Source: a virus
Lineage: Duplodnaviria; Caudoviricetes
Length of the DNA: 64,000 nt
Strand: one strand, 5' to 3'
Virus record (IMG/VR): IMGVR_UViG_3300049988_000118
Span: 9,989-73,988 of that record
The notes under the pieces are model-generated. The model did no database searches. It was not told the origin of the DNA and saw nothing but the letters and a program-made list of their open reading frames with translations. Within the stretch, counting starts at the first letter, position 1, and every line of letters begins with the position of its first letter. Shown here one piece after another: positions 12,776-31,833 of this stretch. Both the position numbers and the translations under genes were made by a program.

Positions 12776-13943
12776 TGGGCCTTCTCAGCCGGATGTTCGG
12801 CGGCGCCAAGCGAGGTGCCGCGCGCGCCTTCTTCGCCCCAGGCTTCGGCTACGAGGGGGCACGCTTTTCGCGCCGGCTTCGCAGCTGGCTGCCGGAGCGC
12901 GCCAGCATCAACGCGCTGCAGGCGCAGGGCGGCGAGCTTCTCCGCGCCCGCGCCCGCCAGCTGGTGCGCGACAACGCCCTGGCCGCGTCCGCGATCGACA
13001 CGTGGGTCGGCTCCGTCGTGGGCGACGGCATCACGCCGTCTCCGACGATCGACGACAAGGCCCTGAAGACGGCCATCAAGGAGGCGTGGCTACGCTGGAC
13101 CGACGAGGCCGATGCCGACGGCCTGACGGATTTCTACGGCCTGCAGGCCCTCGTCGCCCGGTCGATGTTCACCGGTGGCGAGTGCTTCGTCCGGTTTCGG
13201 CCTCGCCGGATCGAGGACGGGTTCAGCGTTCCGCTGCAGCTTCAGATCTACGAGGCCGAGCAGCTGCCGCTGTCCTTCAACGTGCAGCGCTCGGACATCG
13301 GCAACGAGATTCGACACGGCATCGAGTTCGACCGGATCGGCCGGCGCCTCGCCTACCACTTCCTGAAGGTCCGGCCCGGCGACGGCGCCTATGCCTACGG
13401 CCTGGAGAATGGCGATCGCGTGCGCGTGGCGGCTTCCGAGGTCATGCACATCTACCGCCCCCTGGAGGCTGGACAGATCCGAGGGCAGACGCAGCTCGCC
13501 GCCGCGATGGTGCGGATGCACCTGCTCGACAGCTACGATGACGCCGAGCTCGACCGGAAGCGCGTCGCTGCGATGTTCGCAGGCTTCATCAAGAAGAACG
13601 CCATCGGCGACCCGCTCCCGGTCCCGGCCGGGTCCGACGCCTTCGGCGGTTTCGGTGGCGTGGGGGATCAGCCGCCTCCGATGGAGATCGAGCAGACCGT
13701 CGCCGACATGGAACCGGGCACGATGAACGTGCTCAACCCCGGCGAGGAGATCACGTTCTCGAACCCGGCCGACGTCGGCGGCTCCTACGAAGCCTTCATG
13801 TATCGGAACCTGCTCGCCATCGCGGCGGGGTGTGGCGTTCCCTACGCGGCCATGACCGGCGACCCGAGCAAGGGCAACTTCTCGTCCCAGCGCAGCATCG
13901 AGCTCGAATACAAGCGCCGGGTCTCGCAGTTCCAACATCAGAC
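12775..13943 (+). CDS. Portal protein, lambda family, 5' segment (interrupted by satellite)
   Basis: LRARARQLVRDN, GECFVRFR, GIEFDRIGRRLAYH, GQIRG, YAAMTGD.S..NFSS motifs. Junction at ...QFQHQT; continues at 31834. Confidence 0.95.
13934..13943 (+). repeat. attL core AACATCAGAC
   Basis: Exact 10-bp direct repeat with 31824-31833 at both portal breakpoints. Confidence 0.92.
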
Positions 13944-13979
13944 TATGTGCTTTGGGCTAAGCCCTTCGTAAATAACGAG

Positions 13980-14003
13980 AAAGCCGCTTTCGGGCGGCTT
14001 TTT
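13980..14003 (+). terminator. Intrinsic (likely bidirectional) terminator just inside attL
   Basis: AAAGCCGC-TTTCGG-GCGGCTTT-TT. Confidence 0.8.
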
Positions 14004-14128
14004 CTGTGGGCGCGCGGGTGGCCTGAGAAGTCTGCCTAAGTCGTTGAAGTCCCATGAGGACCGGCGGCGCCACGCGACATGCGCGCGACATTCGATGCGA
14101 CAACGAACGCGACAAAATCGGAGGGCCT

Positions 14129-14341
14129 ATGTCCATGCACCCTGAGCAGGATTTGCTCTACGGCGTCCCTGCCATTGCGACTTTCCTCGGCATCCGGCCA
14201 CGTCAGGCCAAGCACCGAGTTGCAACGGGCGAGATCCCCTCGTTCCGCATTGGGGAATCCATCTGCGCTCGCCGCTCAACTCTGACGGCGTGGCTTGCCG
14301 AGCGCGAGGCCGAGGCCCAGCGGAGCCGGTCCAATGCCTGA
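14129..14341 (+). CDS. Excisionase-like HTH protein
   Basis: LLYGVPAIATFLG..GEIPSFRIG.SICARRSTL..W (HTH_17/Xis pattern); GGAGG RBS; adjacent to att. Confidence 0.7.
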   Translation: MSMHPEQDLLYGVPAIATFLGIRPRQAKHRVATGEIPSFRIGESICARRSTLTAWLAEREAEAQRSRSNA

Positions 14342-14657
14342 CATCGCCAACACCAGCCTGTCCCCGGTCACGGCCAACCCGACCGCCCACCGCAACACTG
14401 ATGTCGCGCGCTTCGTCTGCCAGATCGGCGGCATCCGTCTCACGGGTGTCCGGCTGATGCGGATGCCCAACGGCGGCCACTTTGCCCAGCCGCAGTTGCG
14501 AACGAAGGGCAGGGGCACCCCGTCCGTCGGTACGACGATCACCGACCCGAACCTCATGAGCGCCATCACCTACGCGGCGCTCGCCCGCCTCTCCACGACG
14601 GACACCGACACGGCCGACGAAGGCCACAGGCACCGTGCCGTCCGCCGCCGGACTTAA
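14334..14657 (+). CDS. Satellite hypothetical protein
   Basis: ATG 14334 overlapping the xis end. Confidence 0.45.
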   Translation: MPDIANTSLSPVTANPTAHRNTDVARFVCQIGGIRLTGVRLMRMPNGGHFAQPQLRTKGRGTPSVGTTITDPNLMSAITYAALARLSTTDTDTADEGHRHRAVRRRT

Positions 14658-14946
14658 CCCCGACCGCCGAGCCGATCTCGCCGACGAGATCGCCGACCTC
14701 CGGCACCGGCTGGCCTGCATCGAGGCCGAACTAGGCTTAGGCTCGCCAGGATTGGCCCAGGACGGGCGAGACCCGTTCGCCGAGGGCCATCTCACCTTGC
14801 AGCGAGCCGCGGGCGCCTGGGGCGTCACCGACGAGGCGGCGCGGAAGAGGGCGCTTCGTCTCGCATCGCTGGGGATGGCCGAGCGGCGCCGGCCCGGCGG
14901 CTGGCGGATCTCGACAGCCGGTGTACGGTTCTATCTCGGAGGGTGA
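14635..14946 (+). CDS. Satellite hypothetical protein, possible HTH
   Basis: LTLQRAAGAWGVTDEAARKRA pattern. Confidence 0.5.
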   Translation: MPSAAGLNPDRRADLADEIADLRHRLACIEAELGLGSPGLAQDGRDPFAEGHLTLQRAAGAWGVTDEAARKRALRLASLGMAERRRPGGWRISTAGVRFYLGG

Positions 14947-14949
14947 CCC

Positions 14950-15456
14950 ATGCCGGACTATTCAGCGGAGATCGGCCGGGTGCTGGCCGAGCGCGACGGC
15001 GTGGATCCGCACGGGGACATCGCCGTGATGACCCGGGCGCTGATGAAGCGATTCCCCGGCGTCACCACCGAGATGATCTTGCGCGGTTGGGAGATCGCAC
15101 GGGAGATCATCGCCACCGACGCCAGGATGGCACCGAGCGTCCGGAAGGTGCCGGTGGTGTTCGGGGAGCCGACCTTGGCTTGGCGTTGCACGGAGCTGGA
15201 TCGGCTGTGGCTGAGCGCCAACGGCCGCGCCTACTTCATCCGCCCCGCGCTTGAAAACGAGACCTGGACCCTCGGAAAAAGCCTCCCCGCCGGCATGACC
15301 GCTCTTGCAATCGTCCGGGGCACCGATGGGTCGACGATCGCCTTCGCGTGCCGCGACCCCAGCGCGCTGACCGAAGCCTCGGACGATGCCCTTGCCGGCG
15401 TGTTCGATGACGAGATCGACGCGGCCGTCGAGCGGACCGCGCGCGGGCCGGAATGA
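14950..15456 (+). CDS. Satellite hypothetical protein
   Basis: GGAGG RBS; operon context. Confidence 0.5.
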   Translation: MPDYSAEIGRVLAERDGVDPHGDIAVMTRALMKRFPGVTTEMILRGWEIAREIIATDARMAPSVRKVPVVFGEPTLAWRCTELDRLWLSANGRAYFIRPALENETWTLGKSLPAGMTALAIVRGTDGSTIAFACRDPSALTEASDDALAGVFDDEIDAAVERTARGPE

Positions 15457-16004: not shown

Positions 16005-16070
16005 ACTCACTCCTTCGGCGCCGGCACCCATACCGCGCTCTGCTTCCCATTCATATCGGAGCATCTCAGC

Positions 16071-16469
16071 ATGCCGAAGTCGAGACGCCGCCCGCAAGCG
16101 GCCGATTCCGCGCGCCTGCCCGTCGTCCCCGAGGACTTCGAGGCGGTGACTGAGGCGGATCGCCGGTTCTTCCTACGGTATCCGCAGCGGTCCTATCGGG
16201 TTCGGCATACAAGCCGGGCAGAGATAGACCAGGGCGCACGCGCCGGCAGTGCGTTCGAGGCGCCTTACGCCAAGTTCCGCTGGTTCACCGCGATCCGACA
16301 GGTGGCGCCGGGGTGTCGGCTGCGTGTGTATCTCCAGGCGCCCGCGCTGTGCGAGACGGACATACCGGAAGCACTGGCGGCCGATATCTACCATCGGTTC
16401 GAGGGGCAAAGCGCTCGCGACACGACAATTCTTATGATGGATGCCCTGAGAAAGGCGGGCGCCCTATGA
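16071..16469 (+). CDS. Satellite hypothetical protein preceding primase
   Basis: GGAG RBS; ATGA coupling to primase. Confidence 0.55.
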   Translation: MPKSRRRPQAADSARLPVVPEDFEAVTEADRRFFLRYPQRSYRVRHTSRAEIDQGARAGSAFEAPYAKFRWFTAIRQVAPGCRLRVYLQAPALCETDIPEALAADIYHRFEGQSARDTTILMMDALRKAGAL

Positions 16470-18763
16470 CGACCGCCGCCGCGGGTGAGCGCCCGCCGAA
16501 ACCCGCCTATCAGCCCTTCACCGGCCTGCCGGACTTGCCGGCGCTGTGCGAGATGCGCGCCCGGCCTCAGTGGCTTGCCTGGGACTACGTGTGGCGCCCG
16601 GAAAAGGCGAAGTGGGACAAGCCCCCAATGAACGCCCGGACGGGCGGGGCCGGCTCGTCAACCGACGCCTCGACGTGGTCCACCTATGACCAGGCCGCGG
16701 CGCGTGCCTCTCGTGAGGGGCTGCCAGGCGTCGGCTACGTCCTGTCGCCGGAGGTCGAGGACAGCGGTGTCGACCTCGACAAGTGCCGCGATCCCGAGAC
16801 GGGTATACTTCAGGCATGGGCGCAGGTGGCCGTCGATTTCGCCGAGACCTACACCGAGGTGTCGCCGTCCGGTCGCGGGCTGCGCTTCTTCGTCAAGGGG
16901 TTAGTCGACGGTCGCAAGATCGATGCGGCCCAAGTGGAGATCTACACCAAGGGCCGATACCTGACCGTCACCGGGCAGCATATCCCTGGCACGCCCACGG
17001 AGATTCGGGAGGCGCCCCGGCTCATCGCCTACCTTCAGGAGCGCGCCGACCAGTTCCGAGAGGTCGAGCGTGCCGCCGCTGATCGCGCCCGAGAGAACGA
17101 GCGCAAGAAGGCCGAGAAGCATGCCGCCCGCGAGCCCCGCCCTGAGCCGGGCCCGACAGTCAGCGAGCGGGCCTCGGCGAGCGCTCGGCAGCGTGGTCCG
17201 CGCGAGGGCGGCGACTTCTGGCGAACCGTCAACGACCGCGCCCTTGCGAACCTTGGCGCATGGGTCCCGAGCGTGTTCCCCGGCGCCCGTTGGCAGGCTG
17301 GCACAGGCGCCTACCGCGTTGAGCAAAGCGCGCTTGGCGAGGGCTACGAGGAAGACCTGTCCCTGCACCCGGACGGCATTCGGGACTTTGGCAGCGGTGA
17401 CATGGGAGACTCGCGCGACGGCGCGCGGACGCCGATCGACGTGGTGGAAGCCTACCTGCCGGCGAGCGACGCCGCGGCGGCGGCCATGTGGCTGTGCGAT
17501 CGGCTCGGCATCCGGCCCGAGGACATCGGGTGGCGTGGCGGGCGTAACGAGGGTGCGGAGCGCCCGCGGTACGAGGGGCCCCAATCCGATCCGGGCCCCA
17601 CCGCCGAGTCGCCGCCGGCATTCCGGGCGCGTCCGTTCGTGTGGAAGGACCCGCACACCCTGCCGATGCGCGAATGGCTTCTCGGCCGGCACCTGATCCG
17701 AAAATACACGAGCGCCACCGTCTCGCCGGGTGGCCTGGGCAAGTCGTCCATCATCATCGTGGACGCGCTGGCCCTCGTGACGGGTCGCAACCTCATCGGA
17801 CACCAGCCGCATGGACGTCACCGGGCGATGATCTGGAACGGCGAAGACCCGATGGACGAATTGCAGAAGCGCATCACGGCGGCCTGCCTCTATTTCGAGA
17901 TCGACCGGACCGAGATCGAGGGGCGCTTGTTCGTCAACTCCGGACGCGACGACCCGATCACGGTGGCGAGAATGCACAGGGGTGACGTGGTGATTGCCGT
18001 GCCGGTGGTGGACGCTCTTAAGGCGACCATCTTGGCGAACGAGATCGACGTCGTGTTCGTGGACCCGTTCGTGTCCTGCCATGAGGTGACGGAGAACGAC
18101 AACAACGCCATTGATCGTGTGGCGAAGCTGTGGGGCCGGATCGCAGGCGAAACGAATTGCAGCATCGAGCTCGTCCACCATTCGCGGAAAACCGGCGGCG
18201 CCGAGATCACCGTCGAGGACGCGCGCGGCGCCGTGGCTTTGCTCGCCGCGGTTCGCTCGGCCCGGACCCTCAACGGCATGCAAAGGGACGAGGCTGAGAA
18301 GTGGGGTATTACGGATCGCGGGCTGTATTTCCGAGTGGACAACGGCAAGGCAAATCTCGCCCCGCCGCCGTCTGAAGGCTCGGCGTGGTTCAAGAAGCAA
18401 TCCGTTTCCCTCGGCAACGGCGGCAGCGTTGGGAGCATCGTGCTCGACGGTGACAGCGTTGGCGTGGTGGCAGCGTGGGAGCCGCCGAACCCAATGGATG
18501 GCGTGTCAGTCGATGATCTGAGAAAAGCTCAGGCAGCGACAAGGGAAGGCCGCTGGCGCGAGAACTCACAGGCTCGCGACTGGATCGGCAAGCCGATCGC
18601 CTACGCCCTCAGGCTCGACGCAGACAACAAGGCCGACCGCGCCCGCATCAAAGGGATGCTCGCCGTCTGGATGAAGACTGGCATGTTCGTGGCCGTCACC
18701 GGCAAGGACGACAAGGCGATGGACCGGACCTTCATTGAGGTTGGCGAGAGCGCAGTCGACTGA
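16466..18763 (+). CDS. Satellite primase-polymerase fused to AAA_25/RepA-like SF4 helicase
   Basis: Prim-pol N-terminus homologous to 2228-4630; Walker A SPGGLGKSS, VFVDPF, LVHHSRK, DARGA. Confidence 0.85.
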   Translation: MTTAAAGERPPKPAYQPFTGLPDLPALCEMRARPQWLAWDYVWRPEKAKWDKPPMNARTGGAGSSTDASTWSTYDQAAARASREGLPGVGYVLSPEVEDSGVDLDKCRDPETGILQAWAQVAVDFAETYTEVSPSGRGLRFFVKGLVDGRKIDAAQVEIYTKGRYLTVTGQHIPGTPTEIREAPRLIAYLQERADQFREVERAAADRARENERKKAEKHAAREPRPEPGPTVSERASASARQRGPREGGDFWRTVNDRALANLGAWVPSVFPGARWQAGTGAYRVEQSALGEGYEEDLSLHPDGIRDFGSGDMGDSRDGARTPIDVVEAYLPASDAAAAAMWLCDRLGIRPEDIGWRGGRNEGAERPRYEGPQSDPGPTAESPPAFRARPFVWKDPHTLPMREWLLGRHLIRKYTSATVSPGGLGKSSIIIVDALALVTGRNLIGHQPHGRHRAMIWNGEDPMDELQKRITAACLYFEIDRTEIEGRLFVNSGRDDPITVARMHRGDVVIAVPVVDALKATILANEIDVVFVDPFVSCHEVTENDNNAIDRVAKLWGRIAGETNCSIELVHHSRKTGGAEITVEDARGAVALLAAVRSARTLNGMQRDEAEKWGITDRGLYFRVDNGKANLAPPPSEGSAWFKKQSVSLGNGGSVGSIVLDGDSVGVVAAWEPPNPMDGVSVDDLRKAQAATREGRWRENSQARDWIGKPIAYALRLDADNKADRARIKGMLAVWMKTGMFVAVTGKDDKAMDRTFIEVGESAVD

Positions 18764-18765
18764 GC

Positions 18766-18891
18766 TTCCACACCCGAGGTTCGGGCCTTCGCGCGTCCAC
18801 ACCCCACCCCACACCCCTATAGGGGTGGTGGTGTGGAATGGAGTTTCCACACTTCCACACCATTCCACACCACGCCTCGCAAGGTGTGGGA
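18766..18891. repeat. Iteron cluster, putative satellite origin
   Basis: TTCCACAC at 18766, 18845, 18853, 18863; inverted GTGTGGAA at 18831; palindrome ACCCCTATAGGGGT at 18813-18826; directly after the primase stop. Confidence 0.75.
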
Positions 18892-19465: not shown

Positions 19466-19586
19466 GCACGTTCCTCGGTGGGTAGGCCCTCCGACCCCGC
19501 CCCGCATGCTGCGCCTCACTACCGCAGCGCACAATGGGTCCTCCGGAGACACCCCACCCCTCTGCGGGCAGAGTTGCTCCCGACTT
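19466..19586 (+). repeat. Satellite copy of helper cos region (121 bp identical)
   Basis: Identical to 9856-9976; upstream of satellite terS. Confidence 0.9.
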
Positions 19587-19668
19587 TCGGCTCTCTGCAA
19601 GTTTGCCAAAAATAGGGGGGGCCGCTTCTTTTCGGTCCCTCGAAGCCTCGCTCCCGATGGAGAAACCG

Positions 19669-20187: not shown

Positions 20188-20207
20188 ACGCGTAATTCGA
20201 TTTAATG

Positions 20208-20247
20208 GTTGGTTTTGGTTGGTTTTCCCCGGTCCAAAGTTGGTTTT
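20208..20247 (+). promoter_or_regulatory. Three helically phased direct repeats GTTGGTTTT
   Basis: Copies at 20208, 20218 and 20239 in the only AT-rich gap before the satellite morphogenesis operon. Confidence 0.5.
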
Positions 20248-20288
20248 CTCTCGTTGAATTAGGCCCTCGTCCGCCGGACACTTCCGGC

Positions 20289-23956: not shown

Positions 23957-26647
23957 ATGTCGACACGCACCGCAACCCTGATCGCCAACTTGGTCGATCA
24001 GGTCTCAGGTCCGGCCAAGGGCATGGCCGGCGCCCTGAAAAGCACCGCATCCGCCCTCGATGCACTGAAGGCCAAGGCCGGCAAGATCGACGCCTTCAAG
24101 CAGGCGAGCAAGTCGCTGGACGACGCCGCGCAGAAGTTCAGGCTGGCGCAGCAGAACGTGCGCAAGATCAAGGCCGAGATGGAGGCCGGCGGCGACGGCG
24201 CCAAAAAGCTCGGGAGCGCGCTGAAGGGCGCCGAGCGCAACGCCGATGCGGCGCGGGCCGCGTTCAAGAATCAGGGGCAGGAGGTCCGCGCGTTGCGCAC
24301 CGCCCTGGAGCAGGCCGGCGTGCCGCTCAACGCGCTCGCCGCGCACGAGCGCCAGTTGCAGACCCAGATCAACCACACCACCGAGGCGCTCAAGCGACGG
24401 AAGAAGGCGCTTGCGGATGTTGGCGCCGGGGCGCCGGCGAGCCGGATGGGGCCAGCCGCAGGCGGGCACGGGCCTCAAGCAGGGCGCGGGGGCGGTGGCA
24501 CGGGCGCCGCCGGGAGCGCCGTAGTGGGCGCCGGCGTGGCGCGCTTCGGCGTGGCAGCGGCCGGAATCGGTGGGGGTGCCTACATCATCGGCGATCAGAT
24601 CCGCCGGGCTGCGAAGTCGTCGATAGATTTCGAGCGCAGCATGATCGAGGTCGGCAAGGCCACCGACGCATCAGGGGCCGATCTCGAAAAATACTCCGAG
24701 GGCATCCTGGCGCTGGCCCGCGCCACCGGCAAGACGAAGGAAGACCTCGCCTCGATGCTCTCCTCGGCGGGCTTTGCCGGCCGCCCGAAGGAGGAGCTAA
24801 TGAACTTCACCGAGTACGCGGCGAAAGCGACCGTGGCTTGGGGCACGAGCGCCGAAGACACCGGCCAGGCGTTGGCCGAGATCGGCAACATCTACGACGC
24901 GAATCAGAAGCGCATCGAGGAGATCGGCGACGCGATCAACACGATGGCGGACAGCTCGGCATCGAAGGAATCCGACCTACTCGACTTCATGCGTCGGGCG
25001 GGTGCCTCGTCGAAGCAGGCCGGCATCTCAGCCGAGCATATGCTGGCGTTCGGCGCCTCGATGAAGGAAGTGGGCGTCCGGACCGACGTGGCCGCCACCG
25101 GCTTCGAGGCACTCCTGAACGTGATGAAGCTCGGCGAGGAGTTTTCGAAGAAAGCAGGCGAAGGTCTGAAGGATCTCGGCGTCAACTCCACCAAGATGCG
25201 CAAGGCGTTCGTCGCCAAGCCGGTCGAGACGATGCTTGGCCTGCTGGAAAAGATCAACAAGGTCGCGGACCCGCTCAAGAAAGCGGAGATTATGACCAAC
25301 CTTTTTGGCAAGGAATATCAGGACGACATCGCCAAGATGCTCAACGCCTTGCCGAAGGTGAACAAGTACATCGGCATCATGAGCGATCAGGCGAAGATTG
25401 CCGCCGGTGGCGTCCGGTTCCAGTTCGGTCAGAACCTCGACAAGGACGTGTCGAAGATCGACCGGGCCACGCAATCCATCGACGTTCTCTACAAGCGCAT
25501 CGGCGACCCGATCAAGATCCAGATCGGCGGCATCTCCGAGCAGGTCAATACGCTCGTCGACAGCCTGGAAAAGGGCGACACGATCCTTCAGCGCCTGGTG
25601 AAGCGCCTCAACGGCGGCGAAGCTGGCAAGCCGATCGAGCTGCCCGAAATGAATGGCGAAGGCGGCCTGGAAAAATGGTTCGAGGAAAAGCTGCCCTGGC
25701 TGAGCGGCAAGAAGTGGAACGACGAGGTCGACAAGCGGATCGGCAAGACCGGCGCTGACACGGACCGGATGAACCGCGAGGACGCCGACGGGCGGCGCGC
25801 CGCGGCCGAGCGGGAGGTGCTCGACCGCCCGGCCGACATCGAGACGAAGATCCAGCGCCAGCGCCGCGCACAGGATCAGGCCCGGCGGGAAGCGGTCGGG
25901 GCTACGGGGATGCGGCGCTCGCTGGCGGTGGAGCAGATCGGCAAGTCCGACGCCGAGGTGAAGCGCTTGGAGGGCGAGCTTGCCAAGGCTTGGGAGGCGA
26001 TCGGAGCCCTTCGCGCTCAGCACAAGCGGGACAAGGGGGCGTTCAGCGTCGACGGTCCGGCTGCGAAGGACGTGGAGACCATCGGCCCGGGCCGCTTCGG
26101 GCTTGGCCTACACGGCACGGACGTGCTGCCCTCGCGCCGGGTGCCGCTACCGCCGCCGCGACCCGCAGGGCTGACGCCCGGCGCAGAAATCACCATGCCG
26201 GAGATCAAGGTCGAGGTGGACACCTCCGGCTTCGATGAGGCCAGCCGCAAGGCCGATGAACTCGGTGCGCGGACCATCGCGCCGAAGGGCGACGGCGCCG
26301 GCTTGGCCCCCATCGGGACAGCGGCCGACGAGGCCAAGGCGAAGCTCTCTGAAATCAATGCCACCACCGTCACACCGAAGGGAGATGCCGCAGGGCTCGC
26401 GCCGCTCGGGACGGCCGCCGACGAAGCCAAGGCAAAGCTTTCGGCCCTCGCCGGGGTGAGCGTCGCGCCGACCGTCGACGCCTCATCCATCGCGGCGGCA
26501 GAAACCGCAGTAGATCGCCTCCTGGCGAAAATCGCCCGGGTCGGCCCAGCCCTGAAAGGCGCCAACGGGGCTGTTGCCTCGGGTGTCGTCCGTTCCGGCA
26601 ACGTCGCCCAGCGCCTCCAGAACACTTTCACCGACAAGGGGATGTGA
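23957..26647 (+). CDS. Satellite tail tape measure protein (896 aa)
   Basis: TP901-type core (SIDFERSMIEVGK...); N- and C-termini match helper TMP; follows chaperone. Confidence 0.92.
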   Translation: MSTRTATLIANLVDQVSGPAKGMAGALKSTASALDALKAKAGKIDAFKQASKSLDDAAQKFRLAQQNVRKIKAEMEAGGDGAKKLGSALKGAERNADAARAAFKNQGQEVRALRTALEQAGVPLNALAAHERQLQTQINHTTEALKRRKKALADVGAGAPASRMGPAAGGHGPQAGRGGGGTGAAGSAVVGAGVARFGVAAAGIGGGAYIIGDQIRRAAKSSIDFERSMIEVGKATDASGADLEKYSEGILALARATGKTKEDLASMLSSAGFAGRPKEELMNFTEYAAKATVAWGTSAEDTGQALAEIGNIYDANQKRIEEIGDAINTMADSSASKESDLLDFMRRAGASSKQAGISAEHMLAFGASMKEVGVRTDVAATGFEALLNVMKLGEEFSKKAGEGLKDLGVNSTKMRKAFVAKPVETMLGLLEKINKVADPLKKAEIMTNLFGKEYQDDIAKMLNALPKVNKYIGIMSDQAKIAAGGVRFQFGQNLDKDVSKIDRATQSIDVLYKRIGDPIKIQIGGISEQVNTLVDSLEKGDTILQRLVKRLNGGEAGKPIELPEMNGEGGLEKWFEEKLPWLSGKKWNDEVDKRIGKTGADTDRMNREDADGRRAAAEREVLDRPADIETKIQRQRRAQDQARREAVGATGMRRSLAVEQIGKSDAEVKRLEGELAKAWEAIGALRAQHKRDKGAFSVDGPAAKDVETIGPGRFGLGLHGTDVLPSRRVPLPPPRPAGLTPGAEITMPEIKVEVDTSGFDEASRKADELGARTIAPKGDGAGLAPIGTAADEAKAKLSEINATTVTPKGDAAGLAPLGTAADEAKAKLSALAGVSVAPTVDASSIAAAETAVDRLLAKIARVGPALKGANGAVASGVVRSGNVAQRLQNTFTDKGM

Positions 26648-26705
26648 CGACGGCAGTCGGCCGCGCAGAGACGGTCAGTAAATGGCTTGTGACGATCTGG
26701 GCAGC

Positions 26706-27050
26706 CTACCGCGCGTCCACGATGCGACAGGACGCGGCGCCGAGAGTTTTCCCGTCCGCCTCGGCGATGCCGATGAAGTTCCGGCCTGTGACGGTAGCGC
26801 CCGGTTTGATGTTGCGGATAACCGAGGCCGCTTCACCCACGGGAGACCCGCCCGGACTTGCTACGGAGCAACTGACCTCGGCGACCTCCACCCGCGCCGA
26901 GCCGGCATTCCTCACCTGAATCACGGTCTCGACGGTCTCGCCGATGGCGCGCGGGCGTCCGGCCGTGACCGAGAGGTCATCCGCCATCCCCGCCGCGTGT
27001 GCGGCGTACGATGACACGATCAGAGCGAGGGCGAGCAGGGCAGGGCGCAT
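26706..27050 (-). CDS. Secreted protein (FxLYD-like Ig fold)
   Basis: Signal peptide MRPALLALALIVSSYAAHA; V.N.G..V...V.C...G pattern. Confidence 0.55.
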   Translation of the reverse strand: MRPALLALALIVSSYAAHAAGMADDLSVTAGRPRAIGETVETVIQVRNAGSARVEVAEVSCSVASPGGSPVGEAASVIRNIKPGATVTGRNFIGIAEADGKTLGAASCRIVDAR

Positions 27051-27093
27051 GCCGGCAAGATAGCCGCCGGGGTGCAGTTGTCGAGACTAGCCC

Positions 27094-27246
27094 TCAACCG
27101 CGTACGGCATGCTGTTCACCCGCCGGGGCAGGCCGCTCGGCATGTGGATGCTTCCGGTTGAATCGGTACTTCAGCAGCGCGAAAAAACCGCCGCCTCCGA
27201 CCACTGCCAAGCCGAGAGCGGACCATAGGAGCAGGGTAGGTGTCAC
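27094..27246 (-). CDS. 50-aa single-TM protein (not in ORF track)
   Basis: GAGGAG RBS + GTG; MTPTLLLWSALGLAVVGGGGFFALLKYRFNRKHPH... Confidence 0.55.
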   Translation of the reverse strand: MTPTLLLWSALGLAVVGGGGFFALLKYRFNRKHPHAERPAPAGEQHAVRG

Positions 27247-27249
27247 GGA

Positions 27250-27621
27250 TCACTCCTCTGATTGCATCACAAGGAAATTTAGAACGTACGGGAAGATATG
27301 GAAGCCCAAAGAAATAACACACCATTGAACCGCGTTTCCGTCCAGAACCGCATCCGCGTCCCGAACGAACGGCACGATCGCCGCTGCCCCTAGAATGCCG
27401 GCCGCGAGAGTGTTGCAGAGCGCGTTGAAGTGCTTGAGGCACTCATTGATGCGCTTGGCGTCAAGCTTCCGCAATGCTGGGTTATCAGACGATGGCGGCG
27501 GTTTTCCTGAACCAAAACTTGGAGAATTTATTTTTCGAGCCAGTGCCTCTGCTTCACCTTCAGCGAAGCTGTCAATCGATCGAAGGGGTGTTGTGCTTTT
27601 CTTAATGGCGCCAGTCATCAA
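27250..27621 (-). CDS. Membrane protein, two TM segments (cargo)
   Basis: Hydrophobic segments in C-terminal half; AT-rich. Confidence 0.5.
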   Translation of the reverse strand: MMTGAIKKSTTPLRSIDSFAEGEAEALARKINSPSFGSGKPPPSSDNPALRKLDAKRINECLKHFNALCNTLAAGILGAAAIVPFVRDADAVLDGNAVQWCVISLGFHIFPYVLNFLVMQSEE

Positions 27622-27986
27622 CGTGACTGCCTTAAGATATTATAATTCATCAAATAAATCTCTCCCTTCGACGATCTAAAGGACATGATCACGAAGGATA
27701 GATAAAACTTGTGCGTTTCATCTTGAGCAAAGCTTTGGGTAATTCGCGCTCCGGTCGAGATTATATTGTCTCGACTTCGACGATGCACAAGAGATAGTAT
27801 TTGATCATCGTCCAATTGAATTGTGGTTTCGGTATCCGTGCTTTCGTCGATACTCAACTTAAATCTGAATCGATATTCAGGATCGTCGTCGAAGGGCATC
27901 ATAACGATGGTTTCTTCGGCGCCAAGAATAATTGAGCCTGAATGAATCAGCTCTCTTTTTCCGACTATGGCAGTGGGCCGAGTCAT
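27618..27986 (-). CDS. Cargo protein, unknown (possibly DUF6864-like)
   Basis: AT-rich; start at MTRPTAIV; overlaps the next gene by 4 nt. Confidence 0.5.
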   Translation of the reverse strand: MTRPTAIVGKRELIHSGSIILGAEETIVMMPFDDDPEYRFRFKLSIDESTDTETTIQLDDDQILSLVHRRSRDNIISTGARITQSFAQDETHKFYLSFVIMSFRSSKGEIYLMNYNILRQSR

Positions 27987-28224
27987 ATGCAGATCCCAAG
28001 CGCGATCGGTGGGCAAGCCGCACACGGCTCGATCCAAGCGCTGTGCCTCTACCCTACGCGCACGACGAAACCCCCATCGCCTTGCAGGGCGTGGGGTTGT
28101 CGTGTCATGATGAACGTAGAGCCTGAGAACTCTCGCGACGGTCCCTTGCAGGGGATAGCGTCGCATCCTGTGACGGAAGCCCAACACCTTGCAGGGTGAT
28201 GTGCCCCGTAATGAACGTGCTCAC

Positions 28225-28395
28225 CTCCCGGTGAGCGCGACCGGCTCACTATGCCGGGAGTGCGGCGACACGGTCAAGCAGAAATGCTCGACTGCGATAC
28301 AAGAGCCCTTCGGGGTAAAGGTCGCCGCGCACGTTCTCACAGGCGTGTTCTCAGCCTCCCGGCGCCAGCACCGCATGCTGGCGTGGCCGAAAGCC
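28225..28395 (+). ncRNA. Candidate structured immunity RNA (P4 CI / P1 c4-like)
   Basis: Multiple stems, plus GTTCTCACAGG and GTTCTCAG segments complementary to flanking upstream and downstream repeats. Confidence 0.45.
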
Positions 28396-28457
28396 CCTGA
28401 GAAGGCTCGAGGCCCCGGCCCTGAGAAGCCGGTTCGTACCTGTGAGAACCGAGATCC

Positions 28458-29147
28458 ATGACCACCACACAGACCCGCACGGCGCCTTCCCGGCGCGTGC
28501 CGCCGGCTGCCCGTCAGCCCGGCCCGGTGACGCTCGCCATACGCGCGCTGCGCCCGAACGAAGCCCCCACCTGGGAACAGCGTCAACGGGAGATCGATGC
28601 GGAGGAGCGGGCCACCCTGCGCGCCCTTCGCAAGCGCGTCGCTCAAGCCGTGTCGGACGGCATCGATTTCCTTGACGCAACCGGCAGGGATCCGGACCTC
28701 GATGCGGACTACACGACCACTGAGCGCGCCCCGGACGGCGGCCTACACACCGTCGGCCGCAGCACCGATGACGAGCCGAGCCTATGTGGCATCGGCGGCC
28801 ACTTCGCGTTCGGGCATCAGCACGAGTTCCCGCAGACGGGTGGCGGCTGCGGTGAAAACGCCCACGACCTTGAGGGTGAGGACGAGCACGGGAGCGACTG
28901 CGACCGTGGGGAGGATTCGCTAGGCTCGCTCGGGGGCACCGCAAATGCTGTCGGCCACTCCCAACTGAATTGGGCGGGCGGCGGTGCGAACGATCTGGAG
29001 GCCGTGGACGAGGACGGCGGCGATATCCAAGACGCCCCTCACGATGGTGACGAGCGCGAGGACGGCGACGACAACGGCATCGGCGACCTTGAAGGCTTGC
29101 ACGAACAGTTCGCCGGCACCCGGTACGCCTTCGCTGGTGCCGTATGA
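28458..29147 (+). CDS. Satellite hypothetical protein, acidic Gly/Asp-rich C-terminus
   Basis: ORF track; first gene after the structured leader. Confidence 0.55.
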   Translation: MTTTQTRTAPSRRVPPAARQPGPVTLAIRALRPNEAPTWEQRQREIDAEERATLRALRKRVAQAVSDGIDFLDATGRDPDLDADYTTTERAPDGGLHTVGRSTDDEPSLCGIGGHFAFGHQHEFPQTGGGCGENAHDLEGEDEHGSDCDRGEDSLGSLGGTANAVGHSQLNWAGGGANDLEAVDEDGGDIQDAPHDGDEREDGDDNGIGDLEGLHEQFAGTRYAFAGAV

Positions 29148-29605
29148 GCGCCCCCGCATCGCGCCGGGGATTCCTCTCCGGTCTCGCCGTCCTGCCGTCT
29201 CTCACGGTAGTGGCAACTGCCGCTGCAAGCCCCGACGCGCCGTTACTTGATTTGGCGCCGCGCCTTGTCCCGCTGCTGGACCGATACGACCGGCTTTGGG
29301 CGGCGCAGGGTGGCACCTACGAGGCCGGCATCGCTGAAGTGCAGCGAGCAACGAGGAGAGGGGCATCTTGGGGGGAGGCACAATCGGCTTCTCCCTTGTG
29401 GCGGAAGTACATGAGCGCCAGGGCGCCGGCCGATCGCATAGGGGACATAATCGACCCTCTGATTGAACCTTTATGGGATCATCGCGCGGTCACCGTGCCG
29501 GGCCTGTTACTCAAAGCCAGGATCGCCGCGACCTTCGATAGCTGGGAAGGCGACGTCTTCGATGACGTTCGCGCCATGGTGAAGGCAGGTACTCTCCTGA
29601 CTTAA
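29144..29605 (+). CDS. Satellite hypothetical protein with twin-arginine-like N-terminus
   Basis: SRRGFLSGLAVL; ATGA coupling. Confidence 0.55.
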   Translation: MSAPASRRGFLSGLAVLPSLTVVATAAASPDAPLLDLAPRLVPLLDRYDRLWAAQGGTYEAGIAEVQRATRRGASWGEAQSASPLWRKYMSARAPADRIGDIIDPLIEPLWDHRAVTVPGLLLKARIAATFDSWEGDVFDDVRAMVKAGTLLT

Positions 29606-29760
29606 CCCCCGGCCCGGCCGCCCGCACGGACGCCTCAGATCTGAGGGCGCGGTGCCGTACCGCGCCAATCCGGAGCCCGGCCGGGCCTCACGAACGCCGC
29701 TCGCGCAATCCCGCGCGGGCGGCATTCGCCGTACCGCACGGCGCAATTCGTGAGGATGCC

Positions 29761-30549
29761 ATGACCACGACACCCACGGTCCACATCACCGACGGCAAAC
29801 CCATGGCGGACAGCCGTGAGATCGCCGCCACTTTCGGCCGGCAGCACAAAGACGTGCTCCGAGCCTATCGAGAGCTCGCATGCTCCGCGGATTTCAGGCA
29901 GCGCAATTTTGCGCCGTTTCATTCCAAGGACTTAAGCGGGTCCACCCTCTCCCACGTCCTGATGACCAAGAACGGGTTCGCCTTCCTCGTCCTCGGCTTC
30001 ACCGGCGCGCCGGCCGCCGTCTTCAAGGAGGCGTACATCGAGCGGTTCGACGCGATGGAGGAGGCGCTACGGGGCAAGGCGATCCTGGCCGTTCCGACCA
30101 CCTTCGCCGAGGCCCTACAGCTTGCCGCCGACAACCAACGGCAGGTTGAAGCGCAGGCCGCACAGATCGCCGTCCTGGCCCCACGCAGCGAGGCCCTGGC
30201 GACCATCGCCGACGGGGAGGGGACGTTCTGCATCCGCGACGCGGCCAAGATGCTTCAGGTCACGGAAAGCGGCCTGACGGCCTACCTGTCGGGCAACGAC
30301 TGGATCTATCGACGCGAGCCCGGCGGGCCATGGGTGGCGACCGCCCGGCGGTTCGGACAGGGCTGGATCACCACGAAGGTGATTCCGGTCGAGGTCGGCA
30401 ACGGCAAGGTCTGGAACAAGCCGCAGGCCCGCATCACGAGCGCCGGCTTGACGGTCCTGGCGATGCGCTTGGGCAAGCCCGTGCCGGCGGGCCTCGCAGC
30501 ATCGGCCCCGCTCATCGAACACGCGGCTCGGCCGCAGGGAGGACACTGA
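29761..30549 (+). CDS. Rha-family regulator fused to ANT/KilAC antirepressor domain
   Basis: DSREIAATFGRQHKDVLRA, MTKNGFAFLVLGFTG..A..FKEAYIERF; then VPTTFAEALQLAAD and IRDAAKML...RITSAGL. Confidence 0.88.
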   Translation: MTTTPTVHITDGKPMADSREIAATFGRQHKDVLRAYRELACSADFRQRNFAPFHSKDLSGSTLSHVLMTKNGFAFLVLGFTGAPAAVFKEAYIERFDAMEEALRGKAILAVPTTFAEALQLAADNQRQVEAQAAQIAVLAPRSEALATIADGEGTFCIRDAAKMLQVTESGLTAYLSGNDWIYRREPGGPWVATARRFGQGWITTKVIPVEVGNGKVWNKPQARITSAGLTVLAMRLGKPVPAGLAASAPLIEHAARPQGGH

Positions 30550-30550
30550 G

Positions 30551-31753
30551 ATGGCGAGCGTCAGGAAGCTCAAGAAGGATGACCCCGCGTCTCCATGGAT
30601 CGTTGAATACACGGACCCGTCGACGGGCAAGCGGGTGCGCAAGACCCCTAAGTCGGGACTGAAAAAGGACGCCGATGCCCTGCGTCGGAAGATCGAGGCG
30701 GAGATCGATGGAGGCATTCACACCGCCCCTTCGACCTCGCCCACGATCGCTGACCTGGGCGACACCTTCGTTCGGAACGCGGCGGAGCGCCTATCGGACG
30801 GCCGGATCGGGCGAAGCCGTTATGCCATCATCGTCTACACGGTGGAGAATTGCCTAAAACCGCACCTTGGTCGCATGAAGCTTTGTGGCCTGAAGCGCGA
30901 GGACGTGGAGGGCTGGTATAACTGGCTGCGCAAGGAAAAGAAGCTTGCCCCGGTCACGTCGAAAGGGCGGGTCATCATTTTCCAGATGATCGAGGACTTT
31001 GCGGTCCGCCGGTCATGGACGAAGCTGACGCCGGTGCGCGACTACCTCAAGGATCTCACCGGCATCCGGCAATCACGTGTGCGGACCTTCAGCGCGGAGC
31101 AGGCCGCGCAGGTGCTCGCGACTGCCGCCCATCGAGCCCCCGGCTTCAAGCTGCGGGCGCACGCCTACACCGAATGCATGGTTAACCTCGCGGCTTGCTG
31201 TGGCCTCCGGTACGGGGAGATCCTGGGATTGTCCCTCGATGACGTGTTCTTCGATGACCGGCGCCTCTACATCCGGCACAGCCTCACGGACTGGGACGAG
31301 TTAAAGGGGCCGAAGACAGTCGCCGGCGTCCGCAACATTCCTTTGCCGCAGCACGTCGCTGACATGCTCACGGCCTGGATCGCCAACGGCTACGTGGCGA
31401 ACGAGCGCCGGTTGCTGTTCCGGACATCATCGGGCGGCATCATCAGTGCCGCGAGCTTCCACAAGGCGACGTGGGGGCCGTTGCTGATCCGTGCAGGGCT
31501 CGGCGAAGGGAAGCGTTTCCACTTCCACGCCCTGCGCCATTTCGCGTCGAGCTGGATGATCGCGAACGGCCTGCCCGTGACCGACGTGGCGCGCCTCATG
31601 GGGCACAGCCATTTCGACACGACGCTCCAGGTCTACGCGCACCCGGTCATCGCGAACCACCGGCACCAGGAGGCTTTCGACCGGATGGCGAGCAATCTGA
31701 AGCTGGAATTGCCTGCGCCAGGGGAGACCTCGCGCGACATGGCGCCGGCCTGA
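30551..31753 (+). CDS. int: Tyrosine integrase (satellite)
   Basis: Intact catalytic set: GLRYGE (R), KTVAG (K), FHALRH (HxxR), MGH, QVY (Y); ends 70 nt before attR. Confidence 0.95.
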   Translation: MASVRKLKKDDPASPWIVEYTDPSTGKRVRKTPKSGLKKDADALRRKIEAEIDGGIHTAPSTSPTIADLGDTFVRNAAERLSDGRIGRSRYAIIVYTVENCLKPHLGRMKLCGLKREDVEGWYNWLRKEKKLAPVTSKGRVIIFQMIEDFAVRRSWTKLTPVRDYLKDLTGIRQSRVRTFSAEQAAQVLATAAHRAPGFKLRAHAYTECMVNLAACCGLRYGEILGLSLDDVFFDDRRLYIRHSLTDWDELKGPKTVAGVRNIPLPQHVADMLTAWIANGYVANERRLLFRTSSGGIISAASFHKATWGPLLIRAGLGEGKRFHFHALRHFASSWMIANGLPVTDVARLMGHSHFDTTLQVYAHPVIANHRHQEAFDRMASNLKLELPAPGETSRDMAPA

Positions 31754-31823
31754 ACGCGACATAAATGCGGATGCGGCTGGACGCATCCAGCGTTTTCAAT
31801 GACTTAGCACATGGGTAAGAGTT

Positions 31824-31833
31824 AACATCAGAC
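31824..31833 (+). repeat. attR core AACATCAGAC
   Basis: Matches 13934-13943; portal frame resumes right after. Confidence 0.92.

What the first reader, a model, noticed from the sequence alone, without database searches (positions are those of the whole stretch)
13934..31833. Possible new satellite class: no capsid, but carries packaging, head-scaffold and tail-length hijack modules
Seen: int, xis, primase-helicase + ori, cos + terS, ClpP/scaffold, tail chaperone and TMP, but no recognisable MCP, portal, TerL, sheath, tube or baseplate. Known: P4 uses Sid/Psu/Delta, Gram-negative PICIs use Rpp, and cf-PICIs encode their own head but no tail. The closest precedent I recall is V. cholerae PLE, reported to use its own TMP/chaperone. 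Inference: this gene set matches none of these families and may define an alphaproteobacterial tail-remodelling satellite family.
Basis: partly seen in the sequence, partly recalled or inferred. Interest (0 to 1): 0.93.

Follow-up and report, generated by a model that had tools for sequence, protein, structure and literature searches.

The report
Capsid-less phage satellite with own tape measure
A 17.9-kb phage parasite sits inside the portal gene of its helper prophage in a Methylobacterium-like leaf bacterium; it has no capsid or tail genes but carries its own packaging signal, head protease-scaffold, tail chaperone and tail ruler, which combines two satellite strategies already published separately, in a lineage I found no report of.

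Summary
Window 13934-31833 is a discrete element flanked by a 10-bp repeat. It encodes xis, primase-helicase with iterons, a cos copy plus terS, a ClpP protease-scaffold, a tail chaperone with a -1 frameshift, a tape measure protein (TMP), an antirepressor and an integrase. No capsid, portal, TerL, sheath, tube or baseplate gene was found. It splits the portal gene of a prophage with a lambda-type head and a contractile tail. A 98%-identical intact portal elsewhere shows that excision would restore the gene.

The "new class" reading is only partly right. Satellites embedded in helper late genes were published in 2023 (HE-PICIs, Enterobacteriaceae). Satellite-encoded TMP and chaperone building chimeric tails were published in 2026 (Vibrio PLEs).

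This element belongs to neither family. Its integrase is unrelated to the P4/HE-PICI clade and its gene order differs. It falls in an alphaproteobacterial integrase clade in which at least 13 of 39 reference-genome loci abut truncated TerL, portal or protease genes. Three further elements share its core (replication, cos/terS, a conserved about 320-360-aa protein, chaperone, TMP), and the two seen to their end carry the integrase last.

This scan has noted helper-embedded and TMP-carrying satellites on other DNA before. Verdict: a real, apparently intact satellite and a new variant of known kinds. Function is inferred, not shown.

The parts
12775..13943 (+). Helper portal gene, N-terminal 390 codons, then 8 foreign codons and a stop at 13971
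   Evidence: Pfam Phage_portal_2 2-354/354, E 2.6e-109. It is 97-98% identical to the intact 511-aa portal P0125.
13934..13943 (+). attL core (AACATCAGAC)
   Evidence: Identical 10-mer at 31824-31833. The empty site in L054 reads CAGCACCAGAC.
13980..14001 (+). G+C-rich hairpin just inside attL, after the truncated portal stop
   Evidence: Seen in the sequence and listed by the terminator scan on the minus strand only. The scan as a whole is not above chance.
14054..14341 (+). Excisionase-like HTH_17 gene at the upstream end
   Evidence: Pfam HTH_17 E 1.4e-4; phrog_18541 and phrog_66. Homologues (42-58% identity) stand at the left end of the three related elements examined there.
14295..15456 (+). 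Three small ORFs of unknown function (14295-14657, 14635-14946, 14950-15456)
   Evidence: No hit in Pfam, PHROGs or PADLOC. 14154-14662 is 81% identical in nucleotides to the L054 element.
16313..18763 (+). Primase plus AAA_25 helicase
   Evidence: Pfam AAA_25 E 4.7e-32; primase PHROGs. The N-terminal domain is 46% identical to the helper primase, and the helicase part differs.
18762..18890 (.). Iteron cluster, candidate replication origin
   Evidence: Six or more TTCCACAC(C) copies in both orientations directly after the primase stop.
19466..19586 (+). cos-like copy, 121 bp identical to the helper segment upstream of the helper terS
   Evidence: blastn 96% over 137 nt, with the first 121 identical. 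Regions 77-79% identical lie upstream of terS in L105 and L106.
19657..20187 (+). Small terminase subunit (ORF opens at 19534)
   Evidence: phrog_57 E 2.4e-25. Only the C-terminal 52 residues resemble the helper TerS, at 37%.
20205..20636 (+). Ribbon-helix-helix protein
   Evidence: Pfam RHH_1, 21.5 bits against a cut-off of 20.5. Conserved in the L054 element.
20627..21718 (+). Conserved 363-aa protein 'X': long helical hairpin plus a small beta domain, function unknown
   Evidence: 240 cluster representatives with E<=1e-3. Model pLDDT 79.5. No significant fold match. It follows terS in L054, L100, L105 and L106.
21978..23231 (+). ClpP-type prohead protease fused to a scaffold-like C-terminal domain (ORF opens at 21687)
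   Evidence: Pfam CLP_protease E 3.5e-27; phrog_94. It is 45% identical over its full length to the helper protease. The stretches GIAASAASIIAMAG and LMMIHDPSGLT are identical in both proteins.
23426..23955 (+). Tail assembly chaperone with a -1 frameshift extension (slippery T TTT TTT at 23767-23773; the -1 frame runs to 23955)
   Evidence: 32% identical to helper ORF 48379-48834, which matches Phage_TAC_7. The helper carries T TTT TTG at the same place, and the two -1-frame peptides share conserved stretches by eye.
23957..26647 (+). Tape measure protein, 896 aa
   Evidence: Pfam PhageMin_Tail E 2.6e-31; phrog_28 E 7.5e-67. Only the first roughly 30 residues and the last 91 residues (44% identical) resemble the 968-aa helper TMP.
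26650..28190 (.). Lower-G+C stretch with small unassigned ORFs, then three CCTTGCAGGG palindromes at 28080, 28144 and 28187
   Evidence: G+C 0.60. No Pfam, PADLOC or Rfam hit. Repeats found.
28189..29605 (+). Three ORFs (28189-28461, 28458-29147, 29144-29605); the first two recur in related elements
   Evidence: Homologues in L003, L005, L069, L070, L088 and L105. No family assignment.
29761..30549 (+). Rha / KilAC (Ant) antirepressor-type protein
   Evidence: Pfam Phage_pRha E 8e-23 and ANT E 3.4e-20.
30551..31753 (+). Tyrosine integrase at the downstream end, pointing outward
   Evidence: Pfam Phage_integrase E 3e-26; phrog_1. Relatives at 78% and 66% identity also abut a portal and a TerL fragment.
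31824..31833 (+). attR core
31834..32200 (+). Helper portal gene, C-terminal 121 codons
   Evidence: phrog_537 and phrog_21. 100% identical to the C-terminus of the intact portal P0125.

Best explanation
The stretch is an apparently intact, helper-dependent phage satellite of 17.9 kb.

Integration. Its tyrosine integrase has inserted it at a 10-bp core in codons 388-390 of the portal gene of a temperate phage. That phage has a lambda-type head (TerS, TerL, gpW, portal, ClpP protease, decoration protein, gpE-type capsid protein) and a contractile tail. The host is a Methylobacterium-like alphaproteobacterium from a leaf metagenome.

Shown by sequence:
- The insertion truncates the portal, and excision at the core would restore it exactly.
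- The element lacks every major virion structural gene.
- It carries a 121-bp exact copy of the helper's terS-proximal (cos-like) segment.
- It carries diverged paralogues of five helper genes: terS, protease-scaffold, chaperone, TMP and the primase N-domain. In terS and the TMP the resemblance is confined to the termini, which I read as the helper-contacting ends.

Inferred mechanism:
1. On helper induction the satellite excises, using xis and int, and replicates from its own iterons with its own primase-helicase.
2. Its TerS binds its own cos-adjacent DNA and recruits the helper TerL through its helper-like C-terminus.
3. Its protease-scaffold co-assembles with the helper capsid protein. This may produce smaller heads, since 17.9 kb is about 0.32 of the roughly 56-kb helper. 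Alternatively, trimers of 53.7 kb could fill normal heads.
4. Its chaperone and TMP replace the helper's inside helper sheath, tube and baseplate, giving chimeric tails, as shown experimentally for Vibrio PLEs.
5. While the satellite stays integrated the helper cannot make a full-length portal, so the satellite gates helper particle production.
For: Insertion is precise.
- att cores found.
- The intact portal P0125 (511 aa) is 97-98% identical to the N part and 100% identical to the C part, and the two parts abut at HQT.
- An empty site is present in L054.

Helper genes are present in the window: TerL, MCP, decoration protein, baseplate, sheath, tube and TMP.

Similarity to the helper sits where helper contacts are expected.
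- cos copy, 121/121 identical.
- TerS, C-terminal 52 aa only.
- TMP, N-terminal about 30 aa and C-terminal 91 aa only.
- Protease-scaffold, 45% over the full length with two motif stretches identical.
- Chaperone, 32% identical, with a slippery heptamer at the same place and a -1-frame peptide with conserved stretches.

The element looks intact rather than decayed. I saw no frameshift or internal stop in any assigned gene, and both att cores are identical.

The pattern recurs.
- Integrase relatives at 78% and 66% identity abut a portal C-fragment at the same site (L003) and a TerL C-fragment (L004).
- A related element interrupts the MCP gene of a 97%-identical helper (L054).
- At least 13 of 39 reference-genome loci from the same integrase clade abut truncated TerL, portal or ClpP genes.
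- Mapped elements measure 11, 11.5 and 21.3 kb. Each has xis at the left end and int at the right end.

The core recurs.
- terS, X, chaperone and TMP occur in L105 (TMP 87-97% identical), L106 (85%) and L100.
- The Methylobacterium sp. Leaf123 element, at the same portal site, has terS and a TMP of a different family, phrog_24. It also holds an 85-bp, 98.8%-identical copy of a helper segment just upstream of its terS.

The TMP type fits the helper's tail. Phage L107 has sheath and tube 71-87% identical to this helper's, and it uses the satellite's type of chaperone and TMP (63-73% identical).
Against: - No experiment or read evidence shows excision, replication, packaging or chimeric virions. 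The contigs laid on the stretch show only the integrated form.
- cos function is inferred from position and identity alone.
- Capsid-size redirection is conjecture. L105 and L106 lack the protease-scaffold, so it is not a family core gene.
- The helper's ends, and therefore its size, are not mapped.
- Helper viability is unknown.
- The closest primase relative (76% identity, L005) lies beside HK97-type protease and capsid genes. The replication module is therefore shared with a capsid-encoding element.
Confidence: 0.75

Rival explanations
1. It is a decayed second prophage. A once-complete temperate phage integrated into the portal gene and has since lost its capsid, portal, TerL and most tail genes by deletion.
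For: - Every late gene it carries has a phage homologue.
- Its primase is 76% identical to one that lies beside HK97 protease and capsid genes in L005.
- Its TMP type is used by a full myovirus, L107.
Against: - I saw no broken gene, and the chaperone frameshift signal is kept.
- The retained genes are those a parasite needs: int, xis, replication, cos/terS and interface-matched assembly proteins.
- The same reduced core recurs, in the same order, in L105, L106 and L100. These have different replication modules, and L105 sits at a different integration site.
- Three mapped clade members are only 11-21 kb.
- Random decay would not produce this repeatedly.
Confidence: 0.08
2. It is an integrative element that merely uses a phage gene as its att site. 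The surrounding prophage does not mobilise it. A different phage may do so, or none.
For: - HE-PICI integrases also land off-target (PMC10111431).
- The satellite TMP is closer to that of phage L107 than to the surrounding prophage's TMP.
- Relatives such as L105 sit in the chromosome.
Against: - The 121-bp cos-like copy is identical to the surrounding prophage's.
- The protease gene shares 78% nucleotide identity with it over 298 nt.
- The last 51 nt of the two TMP genes are 88% identical.
- The TerS C-terminus matches the surrounding prophage's TerS.
- These point to continuing exchange with, and adaptation to, this phage or a very near relative.
Confidence: 0.12
3. It is not a separate element but a mosaic segment of the phage genome: duplicated late and replication genes within one large 74-kb phage.
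For: - The genes are co-oriented with the late operon.
- Depth is uniform, about 28-33x, across the junctions in the source assembly.
Against: - The portal reading frame is broken, and 8 foreign codons follow the break.
- A 98%-identical phage has the uninterrupted portal.
- Identical 10-bp repeats flank a unit that encodes both int and xis.
Confidence: 0.03

Closest known systems
HE-PICIs (helper-embedded PICIs; founder Eco567.11capE in E. coli NRG857c), Tommasini, Mageeney & Williams 2023, NAR Genom Bioinform, PMC10111431
   Same: [quoted passage not shown]
- A 10-bp identity block at the att sites.
- No replacement sequence for the broken gene, so the gene is restored only by excision.
- Own primase, a cos-like copy shared with the helper, and a late zone of helper-derived genes.
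- An integrase clade that repeatedly switches among late-gene sites, including portal, TerL and ClpP protease.
   Different: - Integrase lineage. This integrase is 20% identical to the 11capE integrase (E 0.002), and the match to P4 integrase has E 0.25. In contrast 11capE against P4 gives E 6e-17. In the tree the two enterobacterial integrases sit outside the alphaproteobacterial clade on branches of about 5 changes per site.
- Gene order. Here xis is at the upstream end and int at the downstream end pointing outward. HE-PICIs have int and AlpA first.
- Host. The published survey covers Enterobacteriaceae only.
- Site. The portal site here lies just past the end of the Phage_portal_2 profile. 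Published portal sites are at profile positions 38, 227 and 241, with a putative one at 21.
- That paper does not mention a tape measure gene (term search).
PLEs of Vibrio cholerae (PLE11, PLE4 and others): satellite-encoded TMP, chaperone and baseplate hub building chimeric tails with phage ICP1, Mathur, Boyd et al. 2026, Nature, PMC12987554
   Same: - The satellite carries its own chaperone and TMP beside a contractile-tailed helper's sheath, tube and baseplate.
- The satellite TMP is shorter than the helper's. Here it is 72 aa shorter, and in PLE11 it is 95 aa shorter, which gave tails about 10 nm shorter.
   Different: - No baseplate hub gene was found here.
- The helper here is a temperate prophage, not a virulent phage.
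- This element also carries terS, cos and a protease-scaffold.
- No Rta-like inhibitor was identified.
- No sequence relationship to PLE was tested.
cf-PICIs (capsid-forming PICIs) and cos-type Gram-negative PICIs
   Same: Small integrative elements with int, replication genes, their own terS or a cos site, and dependence on a helper for missing virion parts. A sampling of cf-PICIs with putative tmp genes is shown in PMC12987554.
   Different: cf-PICIs encode their own capsid protein, portal and connectors and borrow only tails (established knowledge, not tested here). This element has none of these and instead borrows the head proteins.
EPIPs of Mycolicibacterium aichiense (bioRxiv 2025, PMC12822802)
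   Same: Satellites that carry a small terminase subunit, a scaffold and a TMP. Altered tail length was observed.
   Different: EPIPs are actinobacterial, use a serine integrase, are isolated as free particles and are not embedded in the helper. No sequence comparison was made.
P4 (satellite of P2)
   Same: The genome-size ratio to the helper is about one third. It parasitises a contractile-tailed temperate phage with a cos site.
   Different: No Psu, Sid or Delta family was hit. The primase and integrase are unrelated to P4 alpha and P4 int. P4 carries no terS, protease or TMP (annotation).

Membership tests
HE-PICI | [quoted passage not shown] | tested here: met
   The portal is split at HQT (codons 388-390), and an intact homologue aligns across the break.
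HE-PICI | Integrase belongs to the HE-PICI clade, a branch within the P4/PICI integrases | tested here: not met
   Against the 11capE integrase: E 0.002, 20% identity. Against P4 integrase: E 0.25. 11capE against P4: E 6e-17. In the tree the two sit outside the alphaproteobacterial clade on very long branches.
HE-PICI | Zone order: integration (int plus AlpA) first, then Bro, replication and late | tested here: not met
   The order here is xis, unknown ORFs, replication, late genes, accessory genes, Rha/Ant, int.
PLE | Satellite-encoded TMP and chaperone, plus a baseplate hub | tested here: inconclusive
   TMP and chaperone are present. No baseplate hub was recognised among the element ORFs.
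PLE | Sequence relationship to V. cholerae PLE genes, and parasitism of virulent phage ICP1 | not tested
   No PLE sequence was fetched. The host and helper here are clearly different, being a Methylobacterium-like bacterium and a temperate prophage.
cf-PICI | Own HK97-fold capsid protein, portal and head-tail connectors | tested here: not met
   No such Pfam or PHROG hit in any element ORF. The 363-aa unknown does not have an HK97 or portal fold.
P4-like | psu, sid, delta, an alpha-type primase and a P4-type integrase | tested here: not met
   No Psu, Sid or Delta family hit. The Psu structure 3RX6 appears only at E 1.2. P4 alpha and P4 int show no significant similarity.
PICI (Gram-negative, cos type) | 10-20 kb; int, an AlpA-like regulator and primase; a cos or terS hijack of a lambdoid helper; no structural genes beyond a few captured late genes | tested here: inconclusive
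   Size, replication genes, cos copy and terS fit. Integrase lineage and gene order do not fit.
Alphaproteobacterial terS-X-TAC-TMP satellites (proposed here) | Core order: replication, HTH, cos-like site and terS, X protein (about 320-360 aa), chaperone, TMP, integrase last; no capsid, portal or TerL gene | tested here: met
   L105 and L106 share X (34-36% identity), the chaperone (84-95%) and the TMP (85-97%). L100 shares terS, X and a TMP of the helper's type, but its contig ends inside the TMP gene.

The most novel reading that the evidence does not exclude
The element may represent an undescribed, conserved family of alphaproteobacterial phage satellites. Its core would be cos/terS, protein X, a tail chaperone and a tape measure. 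Such satellites would swap the helper's tail ruler for an alternative allele that also circulates among helper-type phages.

Some members would, through an integrase clade unrelated to that of HE-PICIs, have independently evolved embedding in the helper's TerL, portal, protease or capsid genes. A further speculative step concerns why they carry their own TMP. An embedded satellite must enter cells that already hold the helper, and its own TMP might let its DNA enter despite helper-encoded exclusion aimed at the helper's TMP.
Probability: 0.4. Interest if true: 0.72.

Novelty: new variant of a known kind. Interest (0 to 1): 0.6.

Why it matters
Two satellite strategies have each been shown in one bacterial group: living inside the helper's late genes (Enterobacteriaceae) and replacing the helper's tape measure (Vibrio). 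This locus combines both in Alphaproteobacteria, using an unrelated integrase clade. That argues that both strategies are convergent, general solutions rather than curiosities.

The family offers a natural system for three questions:
- How a TMP is selected into a tail. The termini match the helper while the middle differs, and two TMP alleles circulate among phages with nearly identical sheath and tube.
- What the conserved protein X does.
- How a satellite gates helper particle production by holding the portal gene apart.

It also matters for annotation. Prophage predictors report such composites as a single virus; here the record is 74 kb and rated 91% complete.

Tried and rejected
- tblastx of the element against the rest of the window gave only compositional noise.
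- IMG/VR scans with the integrase and with protein X found no relatives.
- Protein X. The Atlas gave only a weak Psu lead, score 0.84. Fold searches against PDB and BFVD found nothing with E <= 0.001, and Psu (3RX6) appears at E 1.2. I drop the Psu/Sid idea.
- PADLOC on ten unknown ORFs and Rfam on 13-33 kb found nothing.
- Terminator-like and promoter-like sites are not above shuffled expectation. The attL hairpin is therefore recorded, but no regulatory claim rests on it.
- Sequencing runs.
  - Only Logan contigs were available.
  - The probable source run covers the integrated form evenly, and no contig joins 13943 to 31834 or 31833 to 13934. Contigs cannot show rare excised forms.
  - Run X2 holds short contigs of the portal flanks and almost nothing of the element. 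No contig bridges the site, so this is not counted as evidence of an empty site.
- The Leaf123 element's TMP showed no similarity to the 38 kb of flanking helper DNA with this query. Whether its termini match its helper's TMP therefore could not be tested.
- Helper ends. No terminal repeat and no convincing direct repeat was found between the record's ends, so the helper size of about 56 kb is approximate.
- L005 as a "full head-tail relative". It shares only the replication module and a few small genes. Its integrase is 37% identical and its head genes belong to another family, so it does not show that the element is a deletion derivative.

Full report
**What is there**

The window is part of a 73,988-bp IMG/VR virus record rated 91% complete by CheckV. 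G+C is about 66%, so I chose genes by third-position G+C and assigned them with Pfam and PHROGs.

Outside the finding lies a prophage with a lambda-type head and a contractile tail:

| Gene | Window coordinates |
|---|---|
| terS | 9896-10633 |
| TerL | 10617-12518 |
| gpW-like | 12521-12775 |
| Portal | split by the element (see below) |
| ClpP protease | 32215-33423 |
| Decoration protein | 33426-33809 |
| gpE-type capsid protein | 33813-34859 |
| Baseplate | 36298-40385 |
| Fibres | 40746-45078 |
| Sheath | 45169-46428 |
| Tube | 46476-47009 |
| Chaperone (Phage_TAC_7) | 48379-48834 |
| TMP (968 aa) | 48936-51842 |

**The finding's stretch is an insertion in the portal gene**

- AACATCAGAC stands at 13934-13943 and again at 31824-31833.
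- The portal frame runs from 12775 to ...SQFQHQT. Eight unrelated codons and a stop follow.
- The frame starting at 31826 reads HQTLVFQLC... and matches portal C-termini.
- An intact 511-aa portal from another sample (P0125) is 97-98% identical to the first part and 100% identical to the second. It aligns across the break without a gap.
- Excision at the core would therefore rebuild the gene exactly.

**Gene content of the element**

Nearly all genes are on the + strand, in this order:
- HTH_17/excisionase-like gene.
- Three small unknown ORFs.
- Primase plus AAA_25 helicase, followed directly by an iteron cluster.
- A 121-bp exact copy of the helper segment that precedes the helper terS.
- terS.
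- An RHH protein.
- A 363-aa unknown, here called X.
- A ClpP protease with a scaffold-like C-terminal half.
- A 145-aa chaperone.
- An 896-aa TMP.
- About 3 kb of small ORFs, with three CCTTGCAGGG palindromes.
- A Rha/KilAC antirepressor-type protein.
- A tyrosine integrase.

No ORF matches a capsid, portal, TerL, sheath, tube or baseplate family. X was modelled from a 50-sequence alignment (pLDDT 79.5). It is a long helical hairpin plus a small beta domain and has no significant structural neighbour.

**Relation to the surrounding phage**

Five element genes are paralogues of helper genes. In terS and the TMP the similarity is confined to the ends, which I take to be the parts that touch other helper components.
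- TerS: only the C-terminal 52 residues match, at 37%.
- TMP: only the first roughly 30 and the last 91 residues match. The last 51 nt of the genes are 88% identical.
- Protease-scaffold: 45% identical throughout. The stretches GIAASAASIIAMAG and LMMIHDPSGLT are identical, and one 298-nt stretch is 78% identical in DNA.
- Chaperone: 32% identical. Both genes have a T TTT TTN slippery heptamer at the same place, and their -1-frame peptides share conserved stretches.
- Primase: the N-domain is 46% identical.
- In L003's helper the scaffold is a separate gene. It matches the C-terminal parts of both protease proteins here, which supports reading those halves as scaffold.

This is the pattern expected of a parasite that plugs its own parts into the helper's machinery. 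It is not the pattern of random remnants.

**Relatives**

The two closest integrases tell the same story.
- The 78%-identical integrase (L003) abuts a portal C-fragment cut at the same codons, in a related prophage.
- The 66%-identical integrase (L004) abuts a TerL C-fragment. A gpW and a portal 98-99% identical to this helper's follow it.
- The contig that holds the intact portal (L054) carries another related element starting 36 nt into the capsid gene. It is 77-81% identical in nucleotides to the xis region and the RHH/X region of this element.

A scan of one genome per species returned 39 loci, of which 32 are from Alphaproteobacteria (31-49% identity). The seven weakest matches are from other groups or unassigned proteobacterial MAGs. 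In at least 13 loci the sequence directly after the integrase is a truncated TerL, portal or ClpP-protease gene. Both lambda-type and HK97-type helper modules occur. None of the 20 loci checked has a tRNA gene nearby.

Where both halves of the target gene were found, the elements measure 11.5, 11 and 21.3 kb. All three have the xis homologue at the left end and int at the right end.

In a maximum-likelihood tree the late-gene targets are interspersed within a 30-row clade with 94/87 support. The type HE-PICI integrase and the P4 integrase lie outside it on branches of about 5 changes per site.

**A conserved core**

The closest TMP relatives (91% and 85% identical) lie in two further capsid-less elements, L105 and L106. 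Both have this order: replication genes, HTH_17, a cos-like region 77-79% identical to this one, terS, an X homologue, small ORFs, a chaperone (84-95% identical), the TMP, accessory genes, and an integrase.
- L105 sits between chromosomal genes.
- The three replication modules differ: primase plus AAA_25 here, DnaB plus DUF1376 in L105, and VapE/DUF5906 in L106.
- An X homologue in L100 follows Prim-Pol/D5_N and terS. It precedes a TMP of the other type, 49% identical to this helper's TMP.
- The Leaf123 element, at the same portal site, has terS and a TMP of yet another family. It also has an 85-bp, 98.8%-identical copy of a helper segment upstream of its terS.
- A full myovirus (L107) has sheath and tube 71-87% identical to this helper's but uses the satellite's type of chaperone and TMP (63-73% identical). 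The satellite's TMP is thus an allele that already works with this kind of tail.
- The protease-scaffold is found only in the window's element, so it is an add-on and not part of the core.

**Comparison with what is published**

- Helper-embedded satellites were described by Tommasini, Mageeney & Williams (2023). They report 491 HE-PICIs at 14 late-gene sites, all in Enterobacteriaceae. The integrases form a branch of the P4/PICI clade, int and AlpA come first in the element, and helper late genes are captured.
- Satellite-encoded TMP, chaperone and baseplate hub that build chimeric, about 10-nm-shorter tails were shown for Vibrio PLEs. Putative tmp genes were noted in PLE-like elements and in some cf-PICIs.
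- EPIPs of Mycolicibacterium also carry a TMP.
- This element works like both kinds but is a member of neither. Its integrase has only generic similarity to the 11capE and P4 integrases, its gene order differs, and it has no P4, cf-PICI or PLE hallmark genes.
- I found no paper on such elements in Alphaproteobacteria or Methylobacterium in the searchable library.
- This scan's own notebook already holds many helper-embedded and TMP-carrying satellites from other genomes. They include alphaproteobacterial ones with an "unrelated integrase lineage". I reached the same conclusion independently.

**What is shown and what is inferred**

Shown by sequence:
- The precise insertion and the fact that excision would restore the portal.
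- The gene set and the absences.
- The exact cos-like copy.
- The terminus-restricted similarity of TerS and TMP to the helper's.
- The recurrence of both the lifestyle and the core.

Inferred:
- Excision on induction and cos packaging by the helper TerL.
- Altered capsid size. The element is 17.9 kb against a helper of about 56 kb, a ratio of 0.32. Three copies make 53.7 kb, so packaging of trimers in normal heads is equally possible.
- Chimeric tails.

No read evidence of excision was obtainable, because only assembled contigs were on hand.

**Verdict**

This is a real, apparently intact, capsid-less satellite and a new variant of known kinds. It is interesting for showing that helper-embedding and tape-measure replacement have arisen together in an independent lineage. 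It is not a categorically new class.

Noticed in passing
L054:7284-13252 (Logan contig of SRR19730691): A helper 97% identical to this one around the portal-to-decoration genes has an intact portal. It carries a different related element starting 36 nt into its capsid gene, with xis, KilA-N/ANT, terS, RHH and an X homologue, and with no primase in the 6 kb seen.
   Followed up: partly
L004:1-3691: An element with a 66%-identical integrase abuts the last 95 codons of TerL. gpW and portal genes 98-99% identical to this helper's follow. The same phage lineage is therefore hit at TerL, portal and capsid genes by sister elements.
   Followed up: partly
L005 (IMGVR_UViG_2643221868_000001, 32838-55273): Ant, int, xis, primase (76% identical) and HNH run uninterrupted. 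Tail-gene fragments lie upstream, and HK97-type protease and capsid genes lie downstream. This could be a tandem of two elements, an unintegrated form, or a capsid-encoding relative. It is unresolved.
   Followed up: partly
window:21617-21676: A perfect 30-bp tandem duplication at the 3' end of the X gene repeats the peptide RHQPVTDLAL. It lies in the low-confidence tail of the model.
   Followed up: no
window:28080-28196: Three copies of the palindrome CCTTGCAGGG stand just upstream of and across the start of ORF 28189-28461. The surrounding region is about 80% identical in nucleotides in L003, and the ORF's homologues recur in other clade members. It looks like an operator set for the satellite's own switch.
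   Followed up: no
L107 (Logan ERR11040775 contig, 28330-45312) against window 45169-51842: Two phages with sheath and tube 71-87% identical use chaperone-TMP cassettes that are only about 30% identical to each other. The chaperone and TMP behave as an exchangeable allelic cassette in this phage group.
   Followed up: partly
window:47010-47942 (- strand): A reverse-strand gene with endonuclease-like and membrane-protein PHROG hits sits between the helper's tube and chaperone genes. It may be a moron or a homing-type insertion.
   Followed up: no
window:4001-6400: A low-G+C patch (0.50 against about 0.66) holds reverse-strand ORFs 4627-5145 and 5146-6384, just after the helper primase. It is a likely accessory or defence cargo of the helper.
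   Followed up: no
L098:11632-11716 against L104 (G006:C12 about 382402-382486): In Methylobacterium sp. Leaf123 the 21.3-kb portal-embedded element holds an 85-bp, 98.8%-identical copy of the helper segment that lies just upstream of the helper portal gene. The copy is placed just upstream of the element's terS. This is a second case of putative cos mimicry.
   Followed up: partly
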